Assembly: GCA_963769935.1 (NCBI GenBank)
Contig: CAVYNY010000010.1
Location: 512,001-576,000, forward strand
DNA: 64,000 bases
Source: an uncultured delta proteobacterium
Lineage (GTDB): Bacteria; Desulfobacterota; Desulfobacteria; Desulfobacterales; JAFDCJ01
Reading direction: 5' to 3'
Positions 2,240-64,000 of the stretch are shown here, piece by piece. Every line of letters begins with the position of its first letter. Position 1 is the first letter of the stretch. The notes below the pieces were generated by a model. It was not told where the DNA came from. It made no database searches and saw nothing but the letters and a program-made list of their open reading frames with translations. Made by a program: the position numbers and the translations under genes.

Positions 2240-2810
2240 GGTTTCAGGTGTCAGCGCCGCCGCCGGCCAAAACAACGGCCGGTCTGATCGAAAAAGAAAC
2301 ATAATAGTTCACCGCAGAGCCCGCCGAGAAAGAAAAGTTAAATTAATCTCTGCGCTCTCTGCGGTGAGACACTTCGTAAAATTGGCATCGAATTTAAGGA
2401 AGTTTCATATGAGGTGTCAGCAGCTCCGCTGACTGCCGAAGCGGCCAGTTTGTCGAGGAGGAGACTTAAATTTTCACCGCAGAGAAAGACTGAAAAGGCA
2501 TTGCTGGCAGGTCGAAAAATGAAAGATGTTAATGGCTGGTGGGAGTGGTTTTTAACCACGATTTCCGATGTTGACCCGACCGAGTTAATCGCGGTTGCAT
2601 CCAGCCCGTAGGGCTTACGCCCCGGAGTGAAAACCGCTCCCACAAGATCCTTAAACGGTCATCAGGTTCCAAAAAATTAGTGGTTCTTTCCATTTTTAAA
2701 GGGAAGTTAGAGGGGATTTCGTCTTCGATCAAACTGGCCGCTTTTCTGGCCAGAGGCGGAGCTGACACCCGAAACCTGACACCTGACACCTTAACCCTGA
2801 AACCTGAAAC
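2240..2810. repeat. Composite nested palindromic repeat element
   Basis: ~60-bp imperfect inverted repeats at 2240-2300 and 2715-2776 enclose a CACCGCAGAG..CTCTGCGGTG hairpin and a REP-like unit (2539-2643). The element ends in a CCTGA(C/A)A heptamer run. Its modules recur at 34150-34447. Confidence 0.8.
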
Positions 2811-2831
2811 CAACACAAAGGTGATTTACCC

Positions 2832-7063: not shown

Positions 7064-7244
7064 TATGGGTGCTTAACAAGGCGACATCGACTATTTGTTG
7101 TTGATGTTGATGATGAGGTTGCATTTTAACGTTATGAATGGACTCGAAGTGAAAATGACTAATCCGCCTAAAAAATGGCGGGCAAGAATGAGCTAATCCG
7201 CCTGTGGTGGACTATCGTTTTTAAATAGACAGAATACCGCAAAT

Positions 7245-7272
7245 ATTCAATCTTCAATCTTCAATTTTCAAT
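7245..7272. repeat. Heptamer tandem array (TTCAATC)n
   Basis: attcaatcttcaatcttcaattttcaat immediately before the RBS of the next gene. Confidence 0.75.
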
Positions 7273-11453: not shown

Positions 11454-11626
11454 GTATTGGAGTGATGGAGTACTGGAGTAATGGAAAAAGGCTGGATGTC
11501 TGTTTTTTCAACACGAAAACACGAAATTTAAAAAACACGAAACTTTTATATTCTCTTTTTCGTTCTTTCGTGCTTTCGTGATTAATTTCTTTTTTGGTTC
11601 TCCGCCTCCGGCGGATCCAGGTTAGG
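11454..11626. repeat. Octamer arrays and palindromic modules
   Basis: (GGAGTRNT)n at 11454-11484; CACGAAA-type left arm 11511-11543 inverted against TTTCGTG-type right arm 11558-11582; TCCGCCTCCGGCGGA hairpin before the RBS. Confidence 0.75.
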
Positions 11627-13187: not shown

Positions 13188-13378
13188 TGCTGGATACTTG
13201 ATACTGGATGCTGGATACTTGATGCTGGATGCTTGTCCCAGCGGAGCGGAGATCCCGCTTATACGGGGATACTTGATATTCAGCAGTGAACCCGGATTGA
13301 GGTCTGGAAACATCCAGCATCCAGCCTGCCAGGCCGAAGCTCTTAAAGAGCGAAGGCTGGAAACCAATATCCAGGATC
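13188..13378. repeat. Heptamer inverted-arm hairpin element between convergent genes
   Basis: Left arm (TGGATGC/TGGATAC)n at 13188-13235; right arm (CATCCAG)n at 13311-13378, interrupted by the mini-hairpin CCAGGCCGAAGCTC..GAGCGAAGGCTGG. Confidence 0.8.
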
Positions 13379-34149: not shown

Positions 34150-34500
34150 AGTTTCTTCCTCGATCAGACTGGACGCTGGCGGCCAGAGGCGGTGCTCGTA
34201 TGAAACTTCATGAAATTCGATGTCATTTTTAGTCTGAAGTTAATTCCTGGCGGGAGTGGTTTTTAACCACGATTACAGATATCGGCCCGGCAGAGTGAAT
34301 CGCGATTGCCTCCAGCCCGTAAGGCTTGCGCCCCGGAGGGAAAACCGCTCCCACAGCATCTTTAAACTGTTTTCAGGTTCCCACAAAGTATCATCTTCAA
34401 TCAAACTGGTCGCCTTCGCGGCCAACGGCGCCGCTGCCACCTGAAACCAGCTTGACCCGCATATTTCCACCTTCCCCATTCCGCATTCCGAATTCAATTC
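34150..34500. repeat. Composite repeat element homologous to 2240-2810
   Basis: 34150-34240 is an inverted homolog of 2371-2466; REP-like unit 34250-34354 matches 2539-2643; ends in an (ATTCCGC)-type heptamer run. Confidence 0.8.
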
Positions 34501-37080: not shown

Positions 37081-37414
37081 TCCCAGTTAAACAAACGACA
37101 AAAAGGTTTAACGGGAAGAATTTGCATCGTTGAGATCGTTTAGTTCGTTAAGATGGTTTTGATCGTTTGGATCGTTTATGGGTTGAATAGGTTGATTGGG
37201 TTGATTGAGTTGAATAAGCTGATAGGTTTAAATGGATATACCTTACCAGCTTAATCAACCAATCAACTTAATCAACTCTTCTCGCTATCAACTATGAACT
37301 ATCAACCGGCACTGAAAGTGCCTCAACCCGCACCTCGCAACCCGCACCCCGTAGCCCGCAACTCGCAACACACAATATGTATTATTCCGCAATCCGCAAT
37401 CCCAAATCCGCAAT
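37081..37414. repeat. Mosaic of 7-9-mer tandem arrays within the mla operon
   Basis: Copy 2 of the 70-bp repeat; (GATCGTTNN)n; (GGTTGATTG)n inverted against (AATCAACTT)n; (CTATSAA)n; (CCCGCAM)n; (ATCCGCA)n. Confidence 0.85.
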
Positions 37415-37418
37415 CGTT

Positions 37419-38210: not shown

Positions 38211-38419
38211 AAATGCCTAAAATTCAAAATGCCTAAATTGCCTAAAATTGAGGATTCGCTTCGCTCTGTCTAAACAGAAAGGCGATGAGCGCTGTGACCA
38301 GAAGACTGAGCATTTGGTTCCATGCATGATGCGAATTCTTTTTAACTCTGTCCCCAGTCCTCGTCCCTTAGTCCTAATACGCCTTTTGCCTTTAGCCTTG
38401 AGCCTTTAACCTTAAGCCT
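38211..38419. repeat. Short tandem arrays between mlaE and mlaF
   Basis: (TGCCTAAA)n, (GTCCYYA)n and (GCCTTTA)n runs; the last type also occurs at 62030-62056. Confidence 0.75.
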
Positions 38420-39591
38420 TATATTCCCAACACATTACACAGCACGGTAATGATCGCCGTTGCCACGGTGATGGCGATGATCGACGTCACAACGGCCGAT
38501 GTGGTTGCGTCGCCGACGGCCGAGGCACTGCGTCCGCAGGCCATTCCTTTGAGGCACCCGGCCAGGGCCACCAACATGCCGAAAACAGCGGCCTGAAAAA
38601 TTCCGATAAAAAAATCGTTTAAATTCAGGGAGGCCTTCGTCTGATTCACATACTGGATGAGGCCGATGTCGAGCAGGCCCACGCCGACGATCAGGCCGCC
38701 GAGCACCCCCATCAGGTCCGCAAAGACGCACAACAGCGGCATCATCAGGACCAGGGCCAGCATCCGCGGCAGCACCAGAAACTCCATGGGAGACACCCCC
38801 ATGGTCTTCAAGGCATCAATCTCTTCGTTGACCTGCATCGTCCCCAGCTGAGCGGCAAAAGCCGCACCGGTGCGGCCCGCCATGACAATCCCGGCCATGA
38901 CGGCCCCCAGGACCCGCACCATGGCAATGGCCACCAGGTTGGCCACAAAGATCTGGGCCCCGAACATCATCAGCTGAACAGCGCCCACGAAGGCCAGGAT
39001 CATGCCGACCAGAAAACTGATCAAAGCCACGATCGGCAGGGCATCGACGCCGCAGTCTTGGATGAGCAGCGTCAAATCGACGCGGCGAAAGCTGGCCTGA
39101 CCCACCGGAAATTTCAAAAGTGCAACTACCGCCTCGCCGATGAACGCCAGCAGTCCCGAAGCGGCTTGCCACAGCGCAATGGCGGATGTGCCGACGCGCA
39201 CCAAAAATGGATCGCGCGTGGTTGCCTTTCGCGCCCCTTTTCTTTCCGCAACGGCCGTCGCCAGACCTATCAGTTTTTTGACGCCGACCGGCAGCCCGTC
39301 CTTTTCCACAACAATATTATTCGCTGAACAGTATTGGTAGAGATCCATTAAAAACGTCACCAGGCTGCTGTCCCAGCCGGTAAGCTGGTCGGTTTCGAAC
39401 ACCAGACGCCGGATGCCTTTAGACGGTTGGATGTGCGGGTAGGCTTCTGCGCTGGCAGGACGATGCGCATCGATTTTCCACCGGCCCTTAAGTTTGACAA
39501 GCAGGGTGTCGTTATCCTGCGGGCTGAAACTGAGGTCACCGCCTTCAGAATGCTTTTCTTTTTCTGATGACTGTTGTTTGTCTTTTGCCAT
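38419..39591 (-). CDS. mlaE: MlaE permease with N-terminal STAS-like domain
   Basis: AGRTGAAFAAQLGTMQVNEEIDAL and VGDATTSAVV. Confidence 0.92.
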   Translation of the reverse strand: MAKDKQQSSEKEKHSEGGDLSFSPQDNDTLLVKLKGRWKIDAHRPASAEAYPHIQPSKGIRRLVFETDQLTGWDSSLVTFLMDLYQYCSANNIVVEKDGLPVGVKKLIGLATAVAERKGARKATTRDPFLVRVGTSAIALWQAASGLLAFIGEAVVALLKFPVGQASFRRVDLTLLIQDCGVDALPIVALISFLVGMILAFVGAVQLMMFGAQIFVANLVAIAMVRVLGAVMAGIVMAGRTGAAFAAQLGTMQVNEEIDALKTMGVSPMEFLVLPRMLALVLMMPLLCVFADLMGVLGGLIVGVGLLDIGLIQYVNQTKASLNLNDFFIGIFQAAVFGMLVALAGCLKGMACGRSASAVGDATTSAVVTSIIAITVATAIITVLCNVLGI

Positions 39592-54554: not shown

Positions 54555-56799
54555 TCCGGGTAAAGGCACTGCTTGCGCAGCGCCCTCCCCACAGACCCGT
54601 ACTTGAAGATTTCCCTCATACGGTTCCTCGGTTCCAATCCTTTTTACCGAATTGGAAACCAAACAGGCGACACCCCGATTGGCGCATAACTTTGCTGCCC
54701 TTTAGGCTTATCAGATATTGTGGACTATCCTGGGTATAGGCAATGGAAAGCTGGCTCGGATTTTCTCGAACTTTTCCCAGCTGATGCCGCCCTTGTGGCT
54801 GCGGCGGCTTAGCCAGAACCGCCAAGCCTTCTCGGCGTACTCAAATACAACCTCAAGGGCCTTGTAGTTGCCACGTACTCCAAAGTACAGGTAGTAGCCC
54901 CGCAACTTCGTACATAGCATCTGATGTTGCTCCTTGATCGGCTCATGCCGATTTTCACGACACCACTGCCACAGCCGCTTCATAAAACGCGACAGCCGCT
55001 TGCCTATTGTTTTCTTCTTTATCACCCAGTAGCCTCGAAGCGATTTTGACCAGTAAAAGGTAAAGCCCAGAAAATCAAACGTACCTTTTCCTTTGCCTTT
55101 TTCCTTTAACGGCGGCCTTCTGAAGTCGATGACCGCGGTCTTGTCCGCATGAAGGGCCAAGCCATACTCATTGAACCGTTTTGGCAGTACATTCATTATC
55201 CGCTTTGCGTCTGACTCGAACTCACAACCGATGATAAAGTCATCCGCATAGCGAATGATGAAACATTTGCCCTTCATTCGAGGCAATGCTTGCTTTACAA
55301 ACCATTCGTCCAGCACATAGTGCAGGAATATGTTCGAAAGCACGGTGAAATTACTCCGCCTTGAGGCACTCCTTTGCCAGGATAGGAAAGAATCCCTTCT
55401 TCCATCACCCCGGCGTTCAACCATTTGCCGATCAGACGCAGCATCCCACCGTCATTGACCCTTCGCTTAATAAACTTGCGAAGCAGATTATGATCAATGT
55501 TGTCAAATAGTCCTTCGATATCTGCGCTCACTATCCAGCCTATGTTCAGCTTCCGGCAATCCTCACGTATCTGGTGGATTGCCTTGTGCTGGCTGTGGCC
55601 CTTGCGAAAGGCGTGGGAAAAATCATAGAAGTTCACGTCATAGATGACGTTTAAGATGGTAGACGCTGCCCTTTGGACGATTTTGTCCTCCAGAGCCGGT
55701 ATACCGATCGGCCTATTTTTCCCCCTTCCTTGTCGATCCAGATCCGTCTTACCGGTGTGGCAACGTACTGACCTCTGCGCAGCCGTTGATATAGATTATA
55801 GAGGTTTTCATCAAGATCCTTGGCGTACTCCTTGGCCGTGATCTTGTCCACACCGGCTGACTTACTCTTACGAACCTGACGAAAGGATTTCTTCAACAGG
55901 TACAAATCAATCCTGTGGACCACAGAGGTGAATACCAGCTCCGGCTCACTCTCTGCCAGCATTCTGATCCGTAAAAGCGATGATTCGCCCTCAAACAGCG
56001 GCGGGCCTCCTCCTGACGGATCTGCCACACCCTGACCGGAATCGCCAGCAGCCTTTGCCGCAATTCCCTGGGTTTCCGTGGATATGGTTGGTGACCTCTG
56101 AGTATCTCCCATAGTTCCTTCCAGAGAAACGTTATACCCGGCTTCTCCTTCCCTGCAGTGGGTCGCTTGGGCCTCACTTCCCCACCTTACCGGTCCAGCA
56201 TTTACGTTCCTGACCATCGGTACTATGATCCGCTAAGACTTCCAGAAAGTCCATCTCGGGTTTGTTCGCTTTTCGCTATCCTCCCCCGATACCTTGTATT
56301 GCTCCTTTGCTTTCGTCTCGCTGGTCAGGTTAGAGCGCCCCTTCACAGCGCCTGGATTCTCGCCTCGTTGCGCTGGCCGGCACCCTCCAACCGGTTATTG
56401 TACACAAGGAAAACATCTGGATCTCCCGAGTTCCCAAGTTACCCCTATGAGCACATGCCCTGGTCTCAGACCCCGGTGGTGTCCCGAATGCTTGCCATAG
56501 CGCATGTGGGACTGCTGCCTTCCGGCCAGATGAACGCCGTCGGCTTTCTCTCATACAAGCGGAACTTATCCCAAGGTCCACAACTATACATTTTTCGGGG
56601 CTCAATACACAGCCTGCATCCTTGATCCATCCGGCTTCGGACTCCCGTCTCCGGGTTGGCCCGCGGATTCACTACTGACCTGGTGGCTAACCTTTAGTCA
56701 GGTGGGACTTGAACCTAGGTGATCCTCACCCACTGGGTAACAATATCGAATTTCACCTCCTTGGAAGGTTCCCAACGATTCGGGCTTAGCTGGGCACGA
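54555..56799 (-). mobile_element. Group II intron (~2245 nt) inserted in sense orientation in the porin-like gene
   Basis: Domain V GAACCGTATGAG-GGAAAT-CTTCAAGTACGGGTC and a domain VI hairpin at the 3' end; RT ORF inside; ~690-nt region upstream of the RT start; excision restores LPIHLTKEW|NLITRP. Boundaries uncertain by 2 nt. Confidence 0.92.
54711..56112 (-). CDS. ltrA: Group II intron reverse transcriptase/maturase without endonuclease domain (two frameshifts, near 55715 and 55343)
   Basis: AGVD, RPIGIPALEDKIVQ, ADIEGLFDNIDH, GVPQGGVISP, RYADD, FDFLGF; domain X LRGYYLYF; ends at PRIVHNI. Confidence 0.9.
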
Positions 56800-57272: not shown

Positions 57273-58812
57273 TCACGGTTGAAGTTCGATTTCTCCCGGC
57301 CGCCAGGTCTTGTCGAACCACGGCTCAAGCGGGCCGTACAGGCGCAGGATCATGAACCAGCCTTTGCCGGGAATCGTCTGCACCCAGTTGTTTTCCTTTC
57401 CTGCCGGAGCTTTGGGGCCGAAATAGACATCGACCGAGCCGTCCTTGTTGACGAGCAGATCCTTGTTCTGGCTGCTGACGCTGGGGAACTGCTGATCGGT
57501 TTGGACCATCGAGCGCGTCTGGTTGTCATAGACGATGACCGACCAGAAGTCTTTGACCGGAATGTTTGGCGGCAGGTGCAGCTTATAGTTGTTTCCGCCC
57601 TCAAACGGGTTGCCGTCCGCGTCCTGTGCGCGACCAGGGATACTGCGAACCTTTGCCGACCATTTTCTCCGCCATGGCCGGCGTCACGCCGGTGGCGAAA
57701 TAGTAAAAGAAATGGCCCCGTCCAGATTGGCCACGCCGGTGCAGCTCTCGAACTTGTAGCCGCCGAAGAAGGGCAGACGCCAAGGGCTGTCTGGATAGAA
57801 GAAGGCGTCTTTGTCACGAATCCTGAAGGCGATCGCTCGCGCGGTCACGCTGCCAATCTTCGCGGCGTCCGTCAGGATCTTCTTCATCCGATCATCGGGA
57901 TTGAAGGGCTTGCCCTTCTCGATGCCGATCGAGGCAAACAGACCCAGCGTGGTGGGGTCGCTTCCCTCGCTTGGCTCTTCCTGAATGGCTTCGTTCAGGA
58001 GACTCCAGAAGGTGTAGTCGCTGGGCGGGACAAAGGTCGAGGGAATGCCCGGAGGCATTGACGAACTTCATCTCGGGAGGATTGGCCGCATCGGAGAGCT
58101 GATAGATCTTCAGATGTTTCTTGACCGCCTCGACGCCGGGCTTGGTCGAGCCATCGACGAGAAAGGAGCGAAAGGGCATCCAGTTGCCATAGGTGCTCGG
58201 CCGCACGACGAAATAGCCCTCGGGCACTTCGCCTTTGTAGCCCGGAGGCAGGATCAGATACTTGCCGCCTTTGCCATGGTCTGCACCTGTAATACCGATG
58301 TCGGCAACCCATTGATACCAGAAGTCATCGATGAGACCCAGAACCATGGGTGGAACCTCTACGACCAGCGGCCCCTTTTTCGTGTCAAGCCAAATGAAGC
58401 TATATATGGTGTTGTCGTTCGCCGTCAGTTCCACGGTTTTCGAATCCACAAGGTCTTCCCAGATCACATCTGTCTGGTTTACCGGTCCGAACTCGCGGAG
58501 CGTGGCGCGCATGCCGACCTGGTTGACTATCGGGATGGCAAGCAGGTAGGCCTGCAGCGCTCGCGAGGCATCCAGGTTGTCGTAGACTTTCTGCGTGGTC
58601 GCGTCATCGGGATAGCCGTAGTTCAGGTTCAGGGTGCCGATGGATGTTTCGACCTTGTCAGGTACCGCTATGCCCTGCGGTAAGGAAGTTGAATACTTGT
58701 ACTCCGGTGCCGCCGGCGCACCTGAGAGCTGCGGTACGGTGCCGGCACATGAGGCGACCGTGATCAAGGCAGCCAATGCTGTGCAGATCGATAGTTGGTT
58801 GCGTGTTGTCAT
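57273..58812 (-). CDS. DUF1254/DUF1214 lipoprotein (frameshifts near 58050, 57720, 57630)
   Basis: LTANDNTIY, GPLVVEVPP, GKGGKYLILPPGY, FWSVIVYD, DGSVDVYFGP, ENNWVQT and LRLYGP. Confidence 0.85.
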
Positions 58813-61172: not shown

Positions 61173-64000
61173 CTAGCTTTTCAATTCGTTTGCCAATTTC
61201 AGGATGCCATCCACGTCAAAATCTTCAGACAGTTGAATGATTTTGTCACAAAAAGGTATCAGAACATTGTCTTCAGACTTCAATTCTTCGGCGATGGCCG
61301 CGGCTTGCATCACATCCCCCATTTCAGCCGCCGCTTTGATGCGATCGGCCGCTTTCTGAGCCAGATTATGCGGTACAACCAGCGTCCCGCCGCCGATCCT
61401 CTCGTTGGTTTTCTTTTCAGCCGTGGGCGCTATGATTTTAACCGCGTCCAGAGCCTGCTCGAGCGCACTTTCCAGTTCTGTTAATTTCCGGTTCAATTCC
61501 TTCTCGGAGGCAGACTTCGCAGTCTGCCCCTTAACAAGTTTTTCCATTGCCACGGCCGCCGCCTGAAGGTCGACGGCGGCCAGATTCCCGGCCAGCCCCT
61601 TCAGGTTGTGGATTAGGCTGTGGGTATGATTAAAATCATTGGCCGCCAAGGCTTCCCGAATTTCGGCGGCGGCGCTGCCGTAGTTGGCGCCGAAATCAAG
61701 CAGCAGCTTGCGGTAAAGGTGTTTGTTGCCCATCAGGCGCGCCAGACCGGCTGCCAGATCGAAGCCCGGCAATGATTCCGGCAGATGATCTTCATCCGGC
61801 TCCGCCTGAACAGCTCCCGCGGATGCATCACTTGCCGGCGGCCCTACTGAGGCGGTTAAACTTTTTTGAACCACGATTCGCCCCGAAACCGGCTTGATCC
61901 ACTTTTGCAGGGCAGCAAACAGCTGGTCCGGATCAATCGGCTTGGTTACGTGATCGTTCATTCCGGCTGCAAGACTCTTTTGTTCGTCACCGGACATGGC
62001 ATGCGCCGTCATGGCGATAATTGGAAGGCCAAAGGCTAAAGGTGAAAGGCTAAAGGTTTCATCGCGGTATTCTGTCTTGTTTCCGCTATCTCCGACTCGC
62101 TGTCCTATGTCCTCTGTCTTCTGACCTATGTCTTCTGCTTGCCGCGCCATAGCCCGGAGGGCGACGGCGGGTCCTCTGTCTTCCGCATTTACACTATGCG
62201 CTATGCTCTTTGCGCTAGGCTTTAAATTTTCAGCTTCCCACATCCGGATTTGCCTTGTGGCCGTGTATCCATCCATCACCGGCATCTGAACATCCATGAG
62301 GACGGCCTCGAATTCCGCTGACTTTACCAGATCGACGGCTTCCTGGCCGTTATTGGCGATGGTGACTGTCAGCCCCGCCCCTTCCAGGATCTCTTTGGCC
62401 ACCTGCTGGTTGATTTCATTATCTTCCACCAGAAGCACCCGGGCTCCATAAATAGCCTTTAGCTGCCCGGCACTCGGTTCATTTGGCCGGCCGGCCGGAG
62501 ATATGTCGTGAAGCTCTTTTCCCAGGGCCTGCATGACGGCATCGAACAGCATCGATGAGCTCACCGGCTTGATCAGAAAACCATCCAATCCGATTTGATC
62601 GGCCTGCCGCATAATGTCTTCCCGACCGTAGGCCGTCACCAGGACGATGGCTGGGATTTTACTCAATTGTTTATGGGTCTTGATGCGCCCGGCGGCTTCG
62701 ATGCCGTCCATGCCCGGCATCTTCCAGTCCATGATGACAAGCTCAAACGGTTTATCCCGGTCCACCCGTTCGATTTCCGCCAGGGCCGCTTGTCCGGAGG
62801 CTGCCAGAAAAACTTCGAATGAAAAAGATTCCAGAATTTCCTGCAGAATTTGGCGGGACGTGGCATTGTCATCCACCACCAGCACCTTCAAGCCTCGGAT
62901 ATCGGGCGACGGCACAAAACGCTTTTTGACCGCATCTTTTCCCAGACCGAAGACGGCCGTAAAATTAAAGGTCGTGCCTTTCCCGGACGCGCTTTCCACC
63001 CAGATCTCGCCGCCCATCAGATTGACCAGGCGCTTGCTGATGGTCAGCCCCAACCCGGTACCGCCGTACTTGCGCGTAGTCGAAGTGTCGGCCTGGGAGA
63101 AGGCCTGGAACAGCTTGGCCTGCTGTTCCGCCGTCATGCCGATGCCCGTATCCCGCACCGAAAACTGAAGGGTAACTTTATCCTCCGACCTCATTTTTAT
63201 CCGGGTGGTCAGCACAATCTCGCCTTGCTCGGTGAATTTTACCGCATTGTTTCCCAGGTTGACCAGGATTTGATTGAGTCTTAACGGATCTCCGACCAGG
63301 AAGTTGGGCACCCGCGAATCGAGGTAGAACAAAACTTCCAGATTCTTTTTTTCCTGCGCTTTGATGGTGATCACATTGGCGACGTTATCCACGGTCTCCG
63401 ATAGATCGAACTCCACGACTTCCATTTCCAGCTTGCCGGCTTCGATTTTTGAGAAATCCAAAATGTCGTTGATGATCCCCAGCAGAGAATTGGCCGAAGA
63501 TTGAATTTTGTTCAAATAATCCTGCTGCTTGGGCGTCAGCTCGGTTTTCAGCGCCAGGTGGGCCATACCGATTACGGCATTCATCGGGGTGCGGATCTCA
63601 TGGCTCATGTTGGCCAGAAAATCGCTTTTGGCCCTGGTGGCGGCTTCGGCCTTAACCTTTTCTTCGTCGAGCTTCTCCATTATGTTAAGCATGGCCGATT
63701 GGGCCTCATCCAGTTCTTTAATGCGTTCATGCAGATCGTTCTCCATTTGTTTGCGCTCGGTAATATCCAGAAATGAGGCCAGGACATCAAGGACATCACC
63801 CTTTTCATCGCGCGTGCAGGCAACGGTTATATTGGTATATACGATTGCGCCGTCCTTGCGGATAAAGCGCTTGTCAAGGGTGTAGTTGTCGATTTGACCG
63901 GTCAGCATCCGTTCGAACTGTTTTACATCGGCAGTGAGATCGTCGGGATGGGTAAGCTCGGCCCAAGTCATCTGGCGCAGCTCATCCAGCGTATAGCCAA
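61173..64000 (-). CDS. Hybrid sensor kinase PAS-HisKA-HATPase-REC-REC-HPt (5' partial)
   Basis: [32 protein letters not shown], two REC domains (DWKMPG, DVQMPV), HPt [10 protein letters not shown]. Confidence 0.95.
62025..62235 (-). repeat. In-frame repeat-derived insertion in the second REC domain
   Basis: Heptamer runs AGCGCAA-AGAGCAT-AGCGCAT, CAGAAGA-CATAGGT-CAGAAGA-CAGAGGA-CATAGGA and CCTTTAG-CCTTTCA-CCTTTAG-CCTTTGG, plus a GC mini-hairpin, between ATRQIR and LPIIAMTA. Confidence 0.85.

What the first reader, a model, noticed from the sequence alone, without database searches (positions are those of the whole stretch)
62025..62235. Intergenic-type heptamer repeat mosaic translated in frame inside a receiver domain
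Seen: the second REC domain has ~70 aa between [11 protein letters not shown] and [10 protein letters not shown]. This stretch is encoded by three different 7-mer arrays plus a mini-hairpin (GCCGTCGCCC-TCC-GGGCTATGGC). The CCTTTAG array is the same type as the intergenic array at 38381-38419, and the frame stays open. Established: this alpha3-beta4 loop is normally under ~10 aa, and Rickettsia palindromic elements are a precedent for selfish repeats entering proteins. Inference: this repeat family invades coding sequence at permissive loops, creating a variable protein insert, or is possibly removed at RNA level.
Basis: partly seen in the sequence, partly recalled or inferred. Interest (0 to 1): 0.8.

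Follow-up and report, generated by a model that had tools for sequence, protein, structure and literature searches.

The report
Swappable repeat cassette in kinase loop
About 70 extra codons in a sensor kinase are a stack of the short 7-base repeats that litter this bacterium's genome; they keep the reading frame in a predicted floppy surface loop, and close relatives carry different repeat stacks at the same spot, so it is likely a tolerated, fast-changing passenger rather than a designed protein part or an intron.

Summary
Observation confirmed: 72 codons (62028-62243, minus strand) fill the alpha3-beta4 loop of the second receiver domain with three heptamer arrays and a mini-hairpin; two DNA runs carry them. 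The genome holds about 1,900 such 7/8/9-mer arrays (shuffled: about 40), mostly intergenic, with a strict convergent order that the insert obeys. Coding-sequence entry is rare (10 genes), half of it at this loop. Across 113 long loops from relatives, 103 are in frame with no stop. Loop dN/dS is about 1 against 0.12 in the flanks. Kinases with 97-98% identical flanks carry unrelated loops, and a near-identical strain has a 23-codon-shorter allele. So: translated, protein-neutral, modular and likely exchanged between paralogs; RNA-level removal is unsupported. Ten loops are frameshifted, four by whole repeat units (slippage or assembly error). Lead on the source: four-helix-bundle genes sit inside such array pairs, and a congener carries six fresh transposase-bearing copies. 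Paired arrays of this class are published (Geobacter, Xanthomonas, Nostoc). This scan already reported the neighbouring paralog and about 31 similar inserts on other DNA. New variant of a known kind.

The parts
61173..64000 (-). Host gene: hybrid sensor kinase (PAS...HisKA-HATPase-REC1-REC2-HPt); runs off the window's end
61875..62444 (-). Second receiver domain including the insert; acidic pair, phospho-acceptor Asp, Thr and Lys-Pro intact
62028..62243 (-). 72-codon insert in the alpha3-beta4 loop; predicted disordered (pLDDT 48-58)
62194..62217 (-). Array 1, AGCGCAT family, forward polarity; module shared with homologs P0041 and P0007
62131..62178 (-). Mini-hairpin module (stem-loop 62146-62168) interrupting a CAGAGGA-family array; at least 7 other copies in the genome; absent at this junction in alleles from runs X9 and X12
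62101..62137 (-). Array 2, CAGAGGA/CAGAAGA family, forward polarity
62058..62100 (-). Non-periodic central spacer; shared with homologs P0002 and P0041
62025..62057 (-). Array 3, CCTTTAG (reverse polarity of the AAAGGCT family); the two units whose last triplet falls in frame are non-stop variants
38211..38420 (+). Intergenic comparison site: forward 9-mer array (38211-38248) and reverse CCTTTAG-family array (38381-38420); same convergent order, unmatched arms

Best explanation
The insert is a composite copy of the genome-wide class of convergent 7-base repeat arrays that keeps the reading frame in a predicted disordered surface loop of a receiver domain, and it is likely translated and neutral for the protein. 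Shown: the modules come from intergenic families and keep the genome's forward-then-reverse order; the receiver core is under purifying selection while loop codons change without regard to amino acid; loop content is uncoupled from flank similarity. Inferred: the loop changes by gain or loss of units (slippage), by stacking of arrays and mini-hairpins, and by recombination among the many paralogous kinases, whose conserved flanks would serve as homology arms; selection mainly filters for frame and absence of stops. More weakly inferred: array pairs first arrive as the ends of four-helix-bundle gene cassettes riding mobile elements, which nest into older pairs and lose their cargo.
For: Order: adjacent arrays G-strand then C-strand 249 times, the reverse 24 times (independent of family labels); 177 against 2 with family polarity (polarity partly derived from position, so partly circular); in 113 loops 45 forward-reverse, 0 reverse-forward. 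Every periodic module of the insert has intergenic relatives in the genome. Frame: 103 of 113 long loops in frame, none with a stop, while 102 of 1,062 frames of intergenic array pairs are open. Selection: flank dN/dS 0.08 over 161 pairs; in 12 non-overlapping pairs loop 0.98 with codon-position counts 52/44/43, flank 0.12 with 156/130/498. Catalytic residues: Asp 101, Thr/Ser 103, Lys-Pro 101 of 103. Uncoupling: flanks 96.8-98.1% identical with unrelated or deleted loops (L308/L258, L181/L220, L015/L318, L171/L183), and loops 94% identical inside flanks 76% identical in one genome (L308/L315); long/short label not clustered on a tree (20 changes, 20.9 shuffled). Strain-level change: an X9 contig with 100 of 100 and 255 of 259 flank letters identical has 83 letters for 152, 23 codons fewer; an X12 contig leaves at the same base and continues without the hairpin. 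Model: core pLDDT 91-98, insert 48-58, receiver fold by Foldseek. Source lead.
Against: Translation was not observed: no RNA or protein data cover the insert. The tree is a quick, weakly resolved one (2 of 68 branches starred). Loop samples are related, were found by motif patterns, and the 12 pairs were chosen for loop similarity. Low loop divergence in those pairs (dS 0.16 against 1.03) could also mean DNA-level constraint rather than exchange. Ten of 113 long loops are frameshifted and one short loop holds a stop, so tolerance is not free. The X9 contig has depth 2.9 and was not listed again when a shorter stretch was laid. Loop lengths show no significant 7-residue periodicity (p 0.09). 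No cassette remnant or target duplication was found in this loop itself.
Confidence: 0.68

Rival explanations
1. The arrays are functional DNA or RNA sites (for a nucleoid protein or the four-helix-bundle protein), kept for that role and merely tolerated by the protein.
For: Strict polarity and a mode of four units (456 of the 7-mer arrays); low loop divergence at all codon positions; Aklujkar et al. proposed IHF/HU-type binding for the Geobacter pairs (PMC2700814, section 14); four-helix-bundle genes lie inside array pairs.
Against: Families and lengths at this site are interchangeable, and near-identical kinases have 8-9-residue loops; dozens of different units share the polarity; no binding data.
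Confidence: 0.12
2. The loop is a contingency locus: slippage of one 7-base unit shifts the frame and reversibly cuts off the rest of the second receiver and the HPt domain, rewiring the phosphorelay.
For: 10 of 113 long loops are frameshifted; four differ from the nearest in-frame loop by -7, -7, -14 and -28 bases, and the frame behind the loop stays open to the end of the fetched DNA in 8 of 10. Two separate assemblies show the same one-unit loss (L157, L239).
Against: All ten are from metagenome assemblies or one fragmented bin, where repeat collapse is a known artefact; the arrays are short (3-5 units) and imperfect; the two alternative alleles at this locus show no shift (the X9 allele is in frame; the X12 contig is too short to tell); 91% of loops are in frame.
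Confidence: 0.1
3. The insert is a selected protein feature that tunes partner binding or insulates paralogous kinases.
For: It recurs at one site in a signalling family, 7 times in this genome, and at the same loop in a Victivallales genome (L136).
Against: Loop dN/dS 0.98 with no third-position bias; unrelated peptides in near-identical kinases; predicted disorder; by the receiver topology (established knowledge) the loop lies on the face opposite the phosphorylation site.
Confidence: 0.06
4. The insert is removed from the transcript or protein (intervening sequence, intron or intein-like).
For: 36 of 103 loops fold much better than shuffles; four-helix-bundle genes are known from excised 23S rRNA intervening sequences (PMC4990558, abstract start only).
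Against: Stops are purged and frame is kept; this insert has no enclosing stem; no Rfam match; no intein-type terminal residues; skip joints in DNA runs have short sides and fit paralogs without a long loop.
Confidence: 0.02
5. Assembly chimera of intergenic repeats into the gene.
For: Repeats can be misjoined in metagenome assemblies.
Against: Contigs of two studies carry the insert joined to its flanks; homologs share its modules.
Confidence: 0.01

Closest known systems
Paired opposite-strand hepta/octanucleotide arrays of Geobacter metallireducens (classes 1-4 and Gmet_H4; Aklujkar et al. 2009, PMC2700814; passages and section 14 read, supplements not opened)
   Same: Same phylum-level group; three to five degenerate tandem units, sites paired on opposite strands at variable distance, several coexisting families, found between and within genes, insertion sequences nearby.
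   Different: No report there, in the parts read, of stacked multi-family mosaics, of a recurrent protein loop, of neutral codon evolution or of exchange among paralogs.
Xanthomonas GGGAATC and Nostoc heptamer repeats (Rehm et al. 2015, PMC4692102; passages read)
   Same: Heptamer arrays, mostly intergenic, in convergent pairs with a fixed polarity relative to gene edges; some intragenic.
   Different: One G-quadruplex-forming unit with matching arms; here many units, no G3 tracts in the insert, and outer arms differ in 141 of 177 intergenic pairs.
P6b heptamer hairpin of the Nostoc tRNA-Leu intron (PMC3488679; passages read)
   Same: A tolerant loop filled with degenerate heptamer repeats that vary in copy number and class and take in extra non-repeat elements.
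   Different: RNA loop with base-paired arms in a group I intron; here a protein loop, arms often unpaired.
TAACTGA repeats of Beggiatoaceae (MacGregor 2015, PMC4679880; passages and section 15 read)
   Same: Intergenic heptamer arrays that occasionally enter ORFs in the stop-free orientation.
   Different: One family, mostly at protein ends; here inside a folded domain and hypervariable.
Rickettsia palindromic elements and intragenic REPs (PMC10969869, PMC3733652; passages read)
   Same: Non-coding repeats read in frame inside working genes; the mini-hairpin module is REP-like.
   Different: RPEs are about 150-bp conserved palindromes with a conserved peptide in unrelated genes; here no conserved sequence or peptide, and one hot-spot loop.

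Membership tests
Paired hepta/octamer arrays (Geobacter, Xanthomonas, cyanobacterial STRR type) | Degenerate tandem units of 7-8 bases, about four copies | tested here: met
   (mode of four units)
Paired hepta/octamer arrays (Geobacter, Xanthomonas, cyanobacterial STRR type) | Dispersed, many copies, mainly intergenic, sometimes intragenic | tested here: met
   994 of 1,132 7-mer arrays intergenic, 23 deep inside called genes
Paired hepta/octamer arrays (Geobacter, Xanthomonas, cyanobacterial STRR type) | Paired on opposite strands in convergent order at variable distance | tested here: met
Paired hepta/octamer arrays (Geobacter, Xanthomonas, cyanobacterial STRR type) | Both arms of one family, able to pair as a hairpin | tested here: not met
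   This insert: three families, z 0.27; met in 36 of 177 intergenic pairs and 36 of 103 loops
Rickettsia palindromic elements | In-frame insertion tolerated at a surface site of a working protein | tested here: met
Rickettsia palindromic elements | Conserved palindrome of about 150 bp encoding a conserved peptide | tested here: not met
MITE | Terminal inverted repeats at the ends of the insert | tested here: not met
   Ends do not pair in the predicted fold; outer arrays belong to different families
MITE | Target-site duplication and an exact empty-site allele | tested here: inconclusive
   Short-loop relatives exist but none is an exact empty site of this locus; the X9 allele is a shorter mosaic
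Simple-sequence-repeat contingency locus | Unit length not a multiple of three, inside the ORF | tested here: met
Simple-sequence-repeat contingency locus | On and off alleles differing by whole units | tested here: inconclusive
   4 of 10 shifted loops fit whole-unit loss, all from assemblies
Simple-sequence-repeat contingency locus | Reversible high-frequency switching within a population | not testable with these tools
   Only assembled contigs were available
Intron, intervening sequence or intein | Recognisable RNA family, enclosing stem or splice-junction residues | tested here: not met
Intron, intervening sequence or intein | Insert missing from the mature RNA or protein | not testable with these tools
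   The one RNA run covers only 62307-62487

The most novel reading that the evidence does not exclude
Convergent array pairs are the ends of a mobile four-helix-bundle gene cassette. Its nested, cargo-less remnants have turned one receiver-domain loop into a recombination and slippage hot spot shared by a whole paralog family, which shuffles loop cassettes between kinases and reversibly truncates the second receiver and HPt, giving sediment Desulfobacterales an unrecognised diversity generator for their phosphorelays.
Probability: 0.15. Interest if true: 0.75.

Novelty: new variant of a known kind. Interest (0 to 1): 0.42.

Why it matters
Abundant heptamer arrays are a long-noted, unexplained feature of many bacterial genomes. 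This site is a natural reporter for them: a reading frame shows that the arrays change quickly, keep a fixed polarity even when the arms cannot pair, and move as modules between paralogs. It also marks the alpha3-beta4 loop of hybrid-kinase receivers as a site that takes at least 110 extra residues, and warns that such peptides in databases are repeat DNA, not new domains. If the frameshift alleles are real and reversible, or the four-helix-bundle cassette is the source, an open question becomes directly testable. As a single locus it is one more case of a class this scan has met many times.

Tried and rejected
RNA test: the only RNA run (X20, share 0.06) does not reach the insert, so expression is untested. 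Laying X9, X10, X12 and X19 on a shorter stretch did not show the 83 replacement letters of the X9 allele; small-share runs were not used for habitat claims. A 7-residue periodicity of loop lengths was suggested by eye but is not significant (p 0.09, 78 loops). A hairpin of the whole insert: rejected. Rfam: two chance hits, none in the insert. Extra Pfam families on homologs (PF24896, PF23198) are receiver-like domains, not repeat-derived. Idea that ordinary genes lie inside array pairs: rejected, 52 flanked the other way against 2. GxxExxY-type genes (PF13366, 2 matches) had no detected arrays. The genome's own IS91-type transposase genes have no arrays within 2.5 kb. The idea that the codons at the end of alpha3 resemble a repeat unit and seed the site is only suggestive (19 of 113 long loops carry the best-matching codon set). 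Polarity labels for arrays around four-helix-bundle genes of relatives were unreliable when taken from the nearest family and were not counted. The careful tree did not finish; the quick tree was used. Literature: nine searches returned no paper on heptamer mosaics in receiver loops; the library lacks most subscription journals, PMC2950511 was not held, and supplements of PMC2700814, which list intragenic copies, were not opened and may bear on novelty. The in-frame heptamer tract in Anabaena nifJ, the likeness of PF05635 to the retroelement accessory protein Avd, and IS91 end motifs are recalled, not checked.

Full report
What is there. The stretch lies in a hybrid histidine kinase on the minus strand. 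Closest named homologs are labelled Desulfobacterales. Between the end of helix alpha3 and strand beta4 of the second receiver domain are 72 codons (62243 to 62028). In coding order they hold an AGCGCAT-family array, a CAGAGGA-family array interrupted by a small stem-loop, a non-periodic spacer and a CCTTTAG array. In this genome 52 of 59 measurable receiver domains have the short spacing and 7 are long. In a GTDB-wide pattern scan 82 of 97 measurable domains have 9-12 residues (22 rows dropped for lack of a beta4 match). The insert is real DNA: contigs of run X3, from a second study, tile it with 0-2 differences; X1 covers nearly all of it and may be the source sample. AlphaFold gives a confident receiver core (pLDDT 91-98) with the insert at 48-58, and Foldseek matches hybrid-kinase receivers.

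The genome context. There are 1,133, 500 and 265 arrays of period 7, 8 and 9, against 11, 13 and 14 after shuffling, in dozens of unit families. By my own gene calls (7,105 genes) 994 of 1,132 heptamer arrays are intergenic. They follow a strand-symmetric rule. Among neighbouring arrays within 300 bp a G-rich strand precedes a C-rich strand 249 times and the reverse 24 times (115 and 96 same-direction pairs, 145 ambiguous). With a polarity assigned per family the count is 177 to 2 (the assignment uses position, so it is partly circular). Outer arms of 177 intergenic pairs differ in family in 141 cases. The insert reads forward-forward-reverse and so obeys the intergenic rule. Each periodic module has intergenic relatives, and the stem-loop module has at least seven other copies, most beside arrays. 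A stringent scan finds arrays deep inside 10 genes only: five are this receiver loop, the rest CobB, HrpA, MutL, a polyketide-synthase linker and one doubtful hit. Entry into genes is thus rare and concentrated.

Relatives. From genus and order genomes, a GTDB scan and a metagenome scan I gathered 259 distinct receiver records, 113 with loops of 19 residues or more. Of these 103 are in frame and none holds a stop, while 60 and 82 of the same loops have stops in the other two frames; only 102 of 1,062 frames of intergenic pairs are open. In the window's third array both units whose last triplet falls in frame are non-stop variants, where 176 of 487 such units in the genome end in a stop triplet (two units, so weak on its own). 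The order forward-then-reverse appears in 45 loops, the opposite in none, with 21 combinations of arm families (family lists picked from the data). Protein homologs show the modules recombined: P0002 shares the window's spacer and last array but has another first half, P0007 shares the first array but another second half, and P0041 shares both without the hairpin. Loops run from 8 to 110 residues. The same loop also holds a perfect heptamer hairpin in a Victivallales genome (L136).

How it evolves. Flanks are under purifying selection (dN/dS 0.08, 161 non-independent pairs) and keep the catalytic residues in 101-103 of 103 records. In 12 non-overlapping pairs chosen for equal loop length and at least 75% loop identity, loop dN/dS is 0.98 with changes spread evenly over codon positions, against 0.12 and a strong third-position excess in the flanks. 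Loop and flank histories are uncoupled both ways: flanks 96.8-98.1% identical around unrelated or deleted loops, and loops 94% identical inside flanks 76% identical within one genome. On a quick, weakly resolved tree of 71 flank sequences the long/short label needs 20 changes, as many as shuffled labels. At this very locus an X9 contig (depth 2.9) with near-identical flanks has 83 letters in place of 152, 23 codons fewer and still in frame. An X12 contig from another study leaves the window's sequence at the same base and continues with heptamer-like units without the hairpin; the X9 contig was not listed in that second call. I infer slippage, module stacking and recombination among paralogs, with selection acting on frame and stops.

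Results against a purely harmless picture. Ten of 113 long loops are frameshifted and one short loop with a 9-mer unit holds a stop. Four of the ten differ from the nearest in-frame loop by 7, 7, 14 and 28 bases, one by a single base, and five cannot be resolved; the frame behind the loop stays open to the end of the fetched DNA in eight. All come from metagenome assemblies or one fragmented bin, so slippage alleles and repeat collapse cannot be told apart. A shift would remove the rest of the second receiver and the HPt domain, which keeps a phase-switch reading alive at about one in ten.

Where the arrays may come from. Ordinary genes have arrays pointing away from them (52 against 2). The seven four-helix-bundle genes (PF05635) instead sit inside arrays: six have a detected array within 300 bp on both sides, against 235 of 7,105 called genes, and the seventh shows one in the printed sequence; arms are usually of one family and convergent, one case has both in the same direction. 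The family is in 22 of 22 congeners and 8 of 12 other genomes of the order; 14 of the 20 best copies fetched have arrays on both sides. In congener G007 six copies over 99% identical, two of about 3.9 kb and four internally deleted to 1.6 kb, lie at unrelated sites; the unit is bounded by convergent octamer arrays and carries the four-helix-bundle gene, an IS91-type transposase in two frames and an IS110-type transposase. One copy sits inside an older convergent heptamer pair, which is the nested order seen in the mosaics, and the window's genome holds a remnant with the same left end and a gutted gene. This shows one route by which array pairs spread and nest. It does not show that this loop arose so: no cassette remnant lies in it.

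Comparison with what is known. Paired opposite-strand hepta/octamer arrays, some intragenic, were described in Geobacter metallireducens (PMC2700814), convergent heptamer pairs in Xanthomonas and Nostoc (PMC4692102), ORF-entering heptamers in Beggiatoaceae (PMC4679880), and a variable heptamer hairpin with extra elements in the Nostoc intron loop P6b (PMC3488679). In-frame repeats are known as Rickettsia RPEs and intragenic REPs (PMC10969869, PMC3733652). Length variation of the alpha3-beta4 loop is noted for plant receptor models (PMC10779265, one passage). I saw passages or named sections of these papers, not whole texts or supplements. The insert meets the class features except matched arms, and fails the RPE, MITE and intron tests. 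Nine searches found no paper on this receiver hot spot. This scan had already reported the neighbouring paralog, a receiver insert in Nitrospirales, 31 in-frame heptamer findings in other genomes and array-bounded four-helix-bundle cassettes; these are unchecked notes and were used as leads only.

Verdict. Real feature; new variant of a known kind. Best reading: a translated, protein-neutral, fast-turning repeat mosaic in a permissive loop shared by a paralog family (0.68). RNA-level removal is unlikely (0.02). Interest 0.42; the most novel reading not excluded has probability 0.15 and would deserve 0.75.

Noticed in passing
G007: L365-L372 (for example L372:526-4346, L369:1736-3341): Six recent copies (over 99% identical) of a unit bounded by convergent octamer arrays, carrying a PF05635 four-helix-bundle gene, an IS91-type transposase in two frames and an IS110-type transposase; four copies are deleted between two mini-hairpin repeats; one copy (L366) is nested in an older heptamer pair.
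   Followed up: partly
G000:C13:346300-346750: Remnant with the same left end as the G007 unit and a four-helix-bundle gene reduced to its two ends.
   Followed up: partly
G000:C18:283904-285451, C19:110857-112701, C28:46300-50391, C3:36497-39229: In-frame arrays in CobB, MutL (linker), HrpA and a polyketide-synthase linker; CobB and MutL show the same forward-then-reverse order.
   Followed up: partly
window 54711-56217 (-): Reverse-transcriptase gene (RVT_1 hits on two of three overlapping frames), group II intron-like by its motif, apparently interrupting another gene.
   Followed up: no
window 57684-58812 (-): DUF1254 lipoprotein-like gene that appears to continue in a second frame.
   Followed up: no
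L136; L333, L334, L338: The same receiver loop holds clean heptamer hairpins with matching arms in a Victivallales genome and in another family of the order.
   Followed up: partly
L277, L282, L297, L306, L318, L322, L323: A recurrent 9-residue loop that itself looks like three repeat units, possibly the collapsed form of a long loop (63-base difference between L015 and L318, flanks 97.8% identical).
   Followed up: partly
L276: Short receiver loop with a 9-mer-type unit and an in-frame stop.
   Followed up: no
window 2762-2811, 7242-7272, 11454-11580, 13188-13233, 34472-34495, 37126-37415: Further 7/8/9-mer arrays of the same class in the window, including a multi-family stack at 37126-37415.
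   Followed up: no
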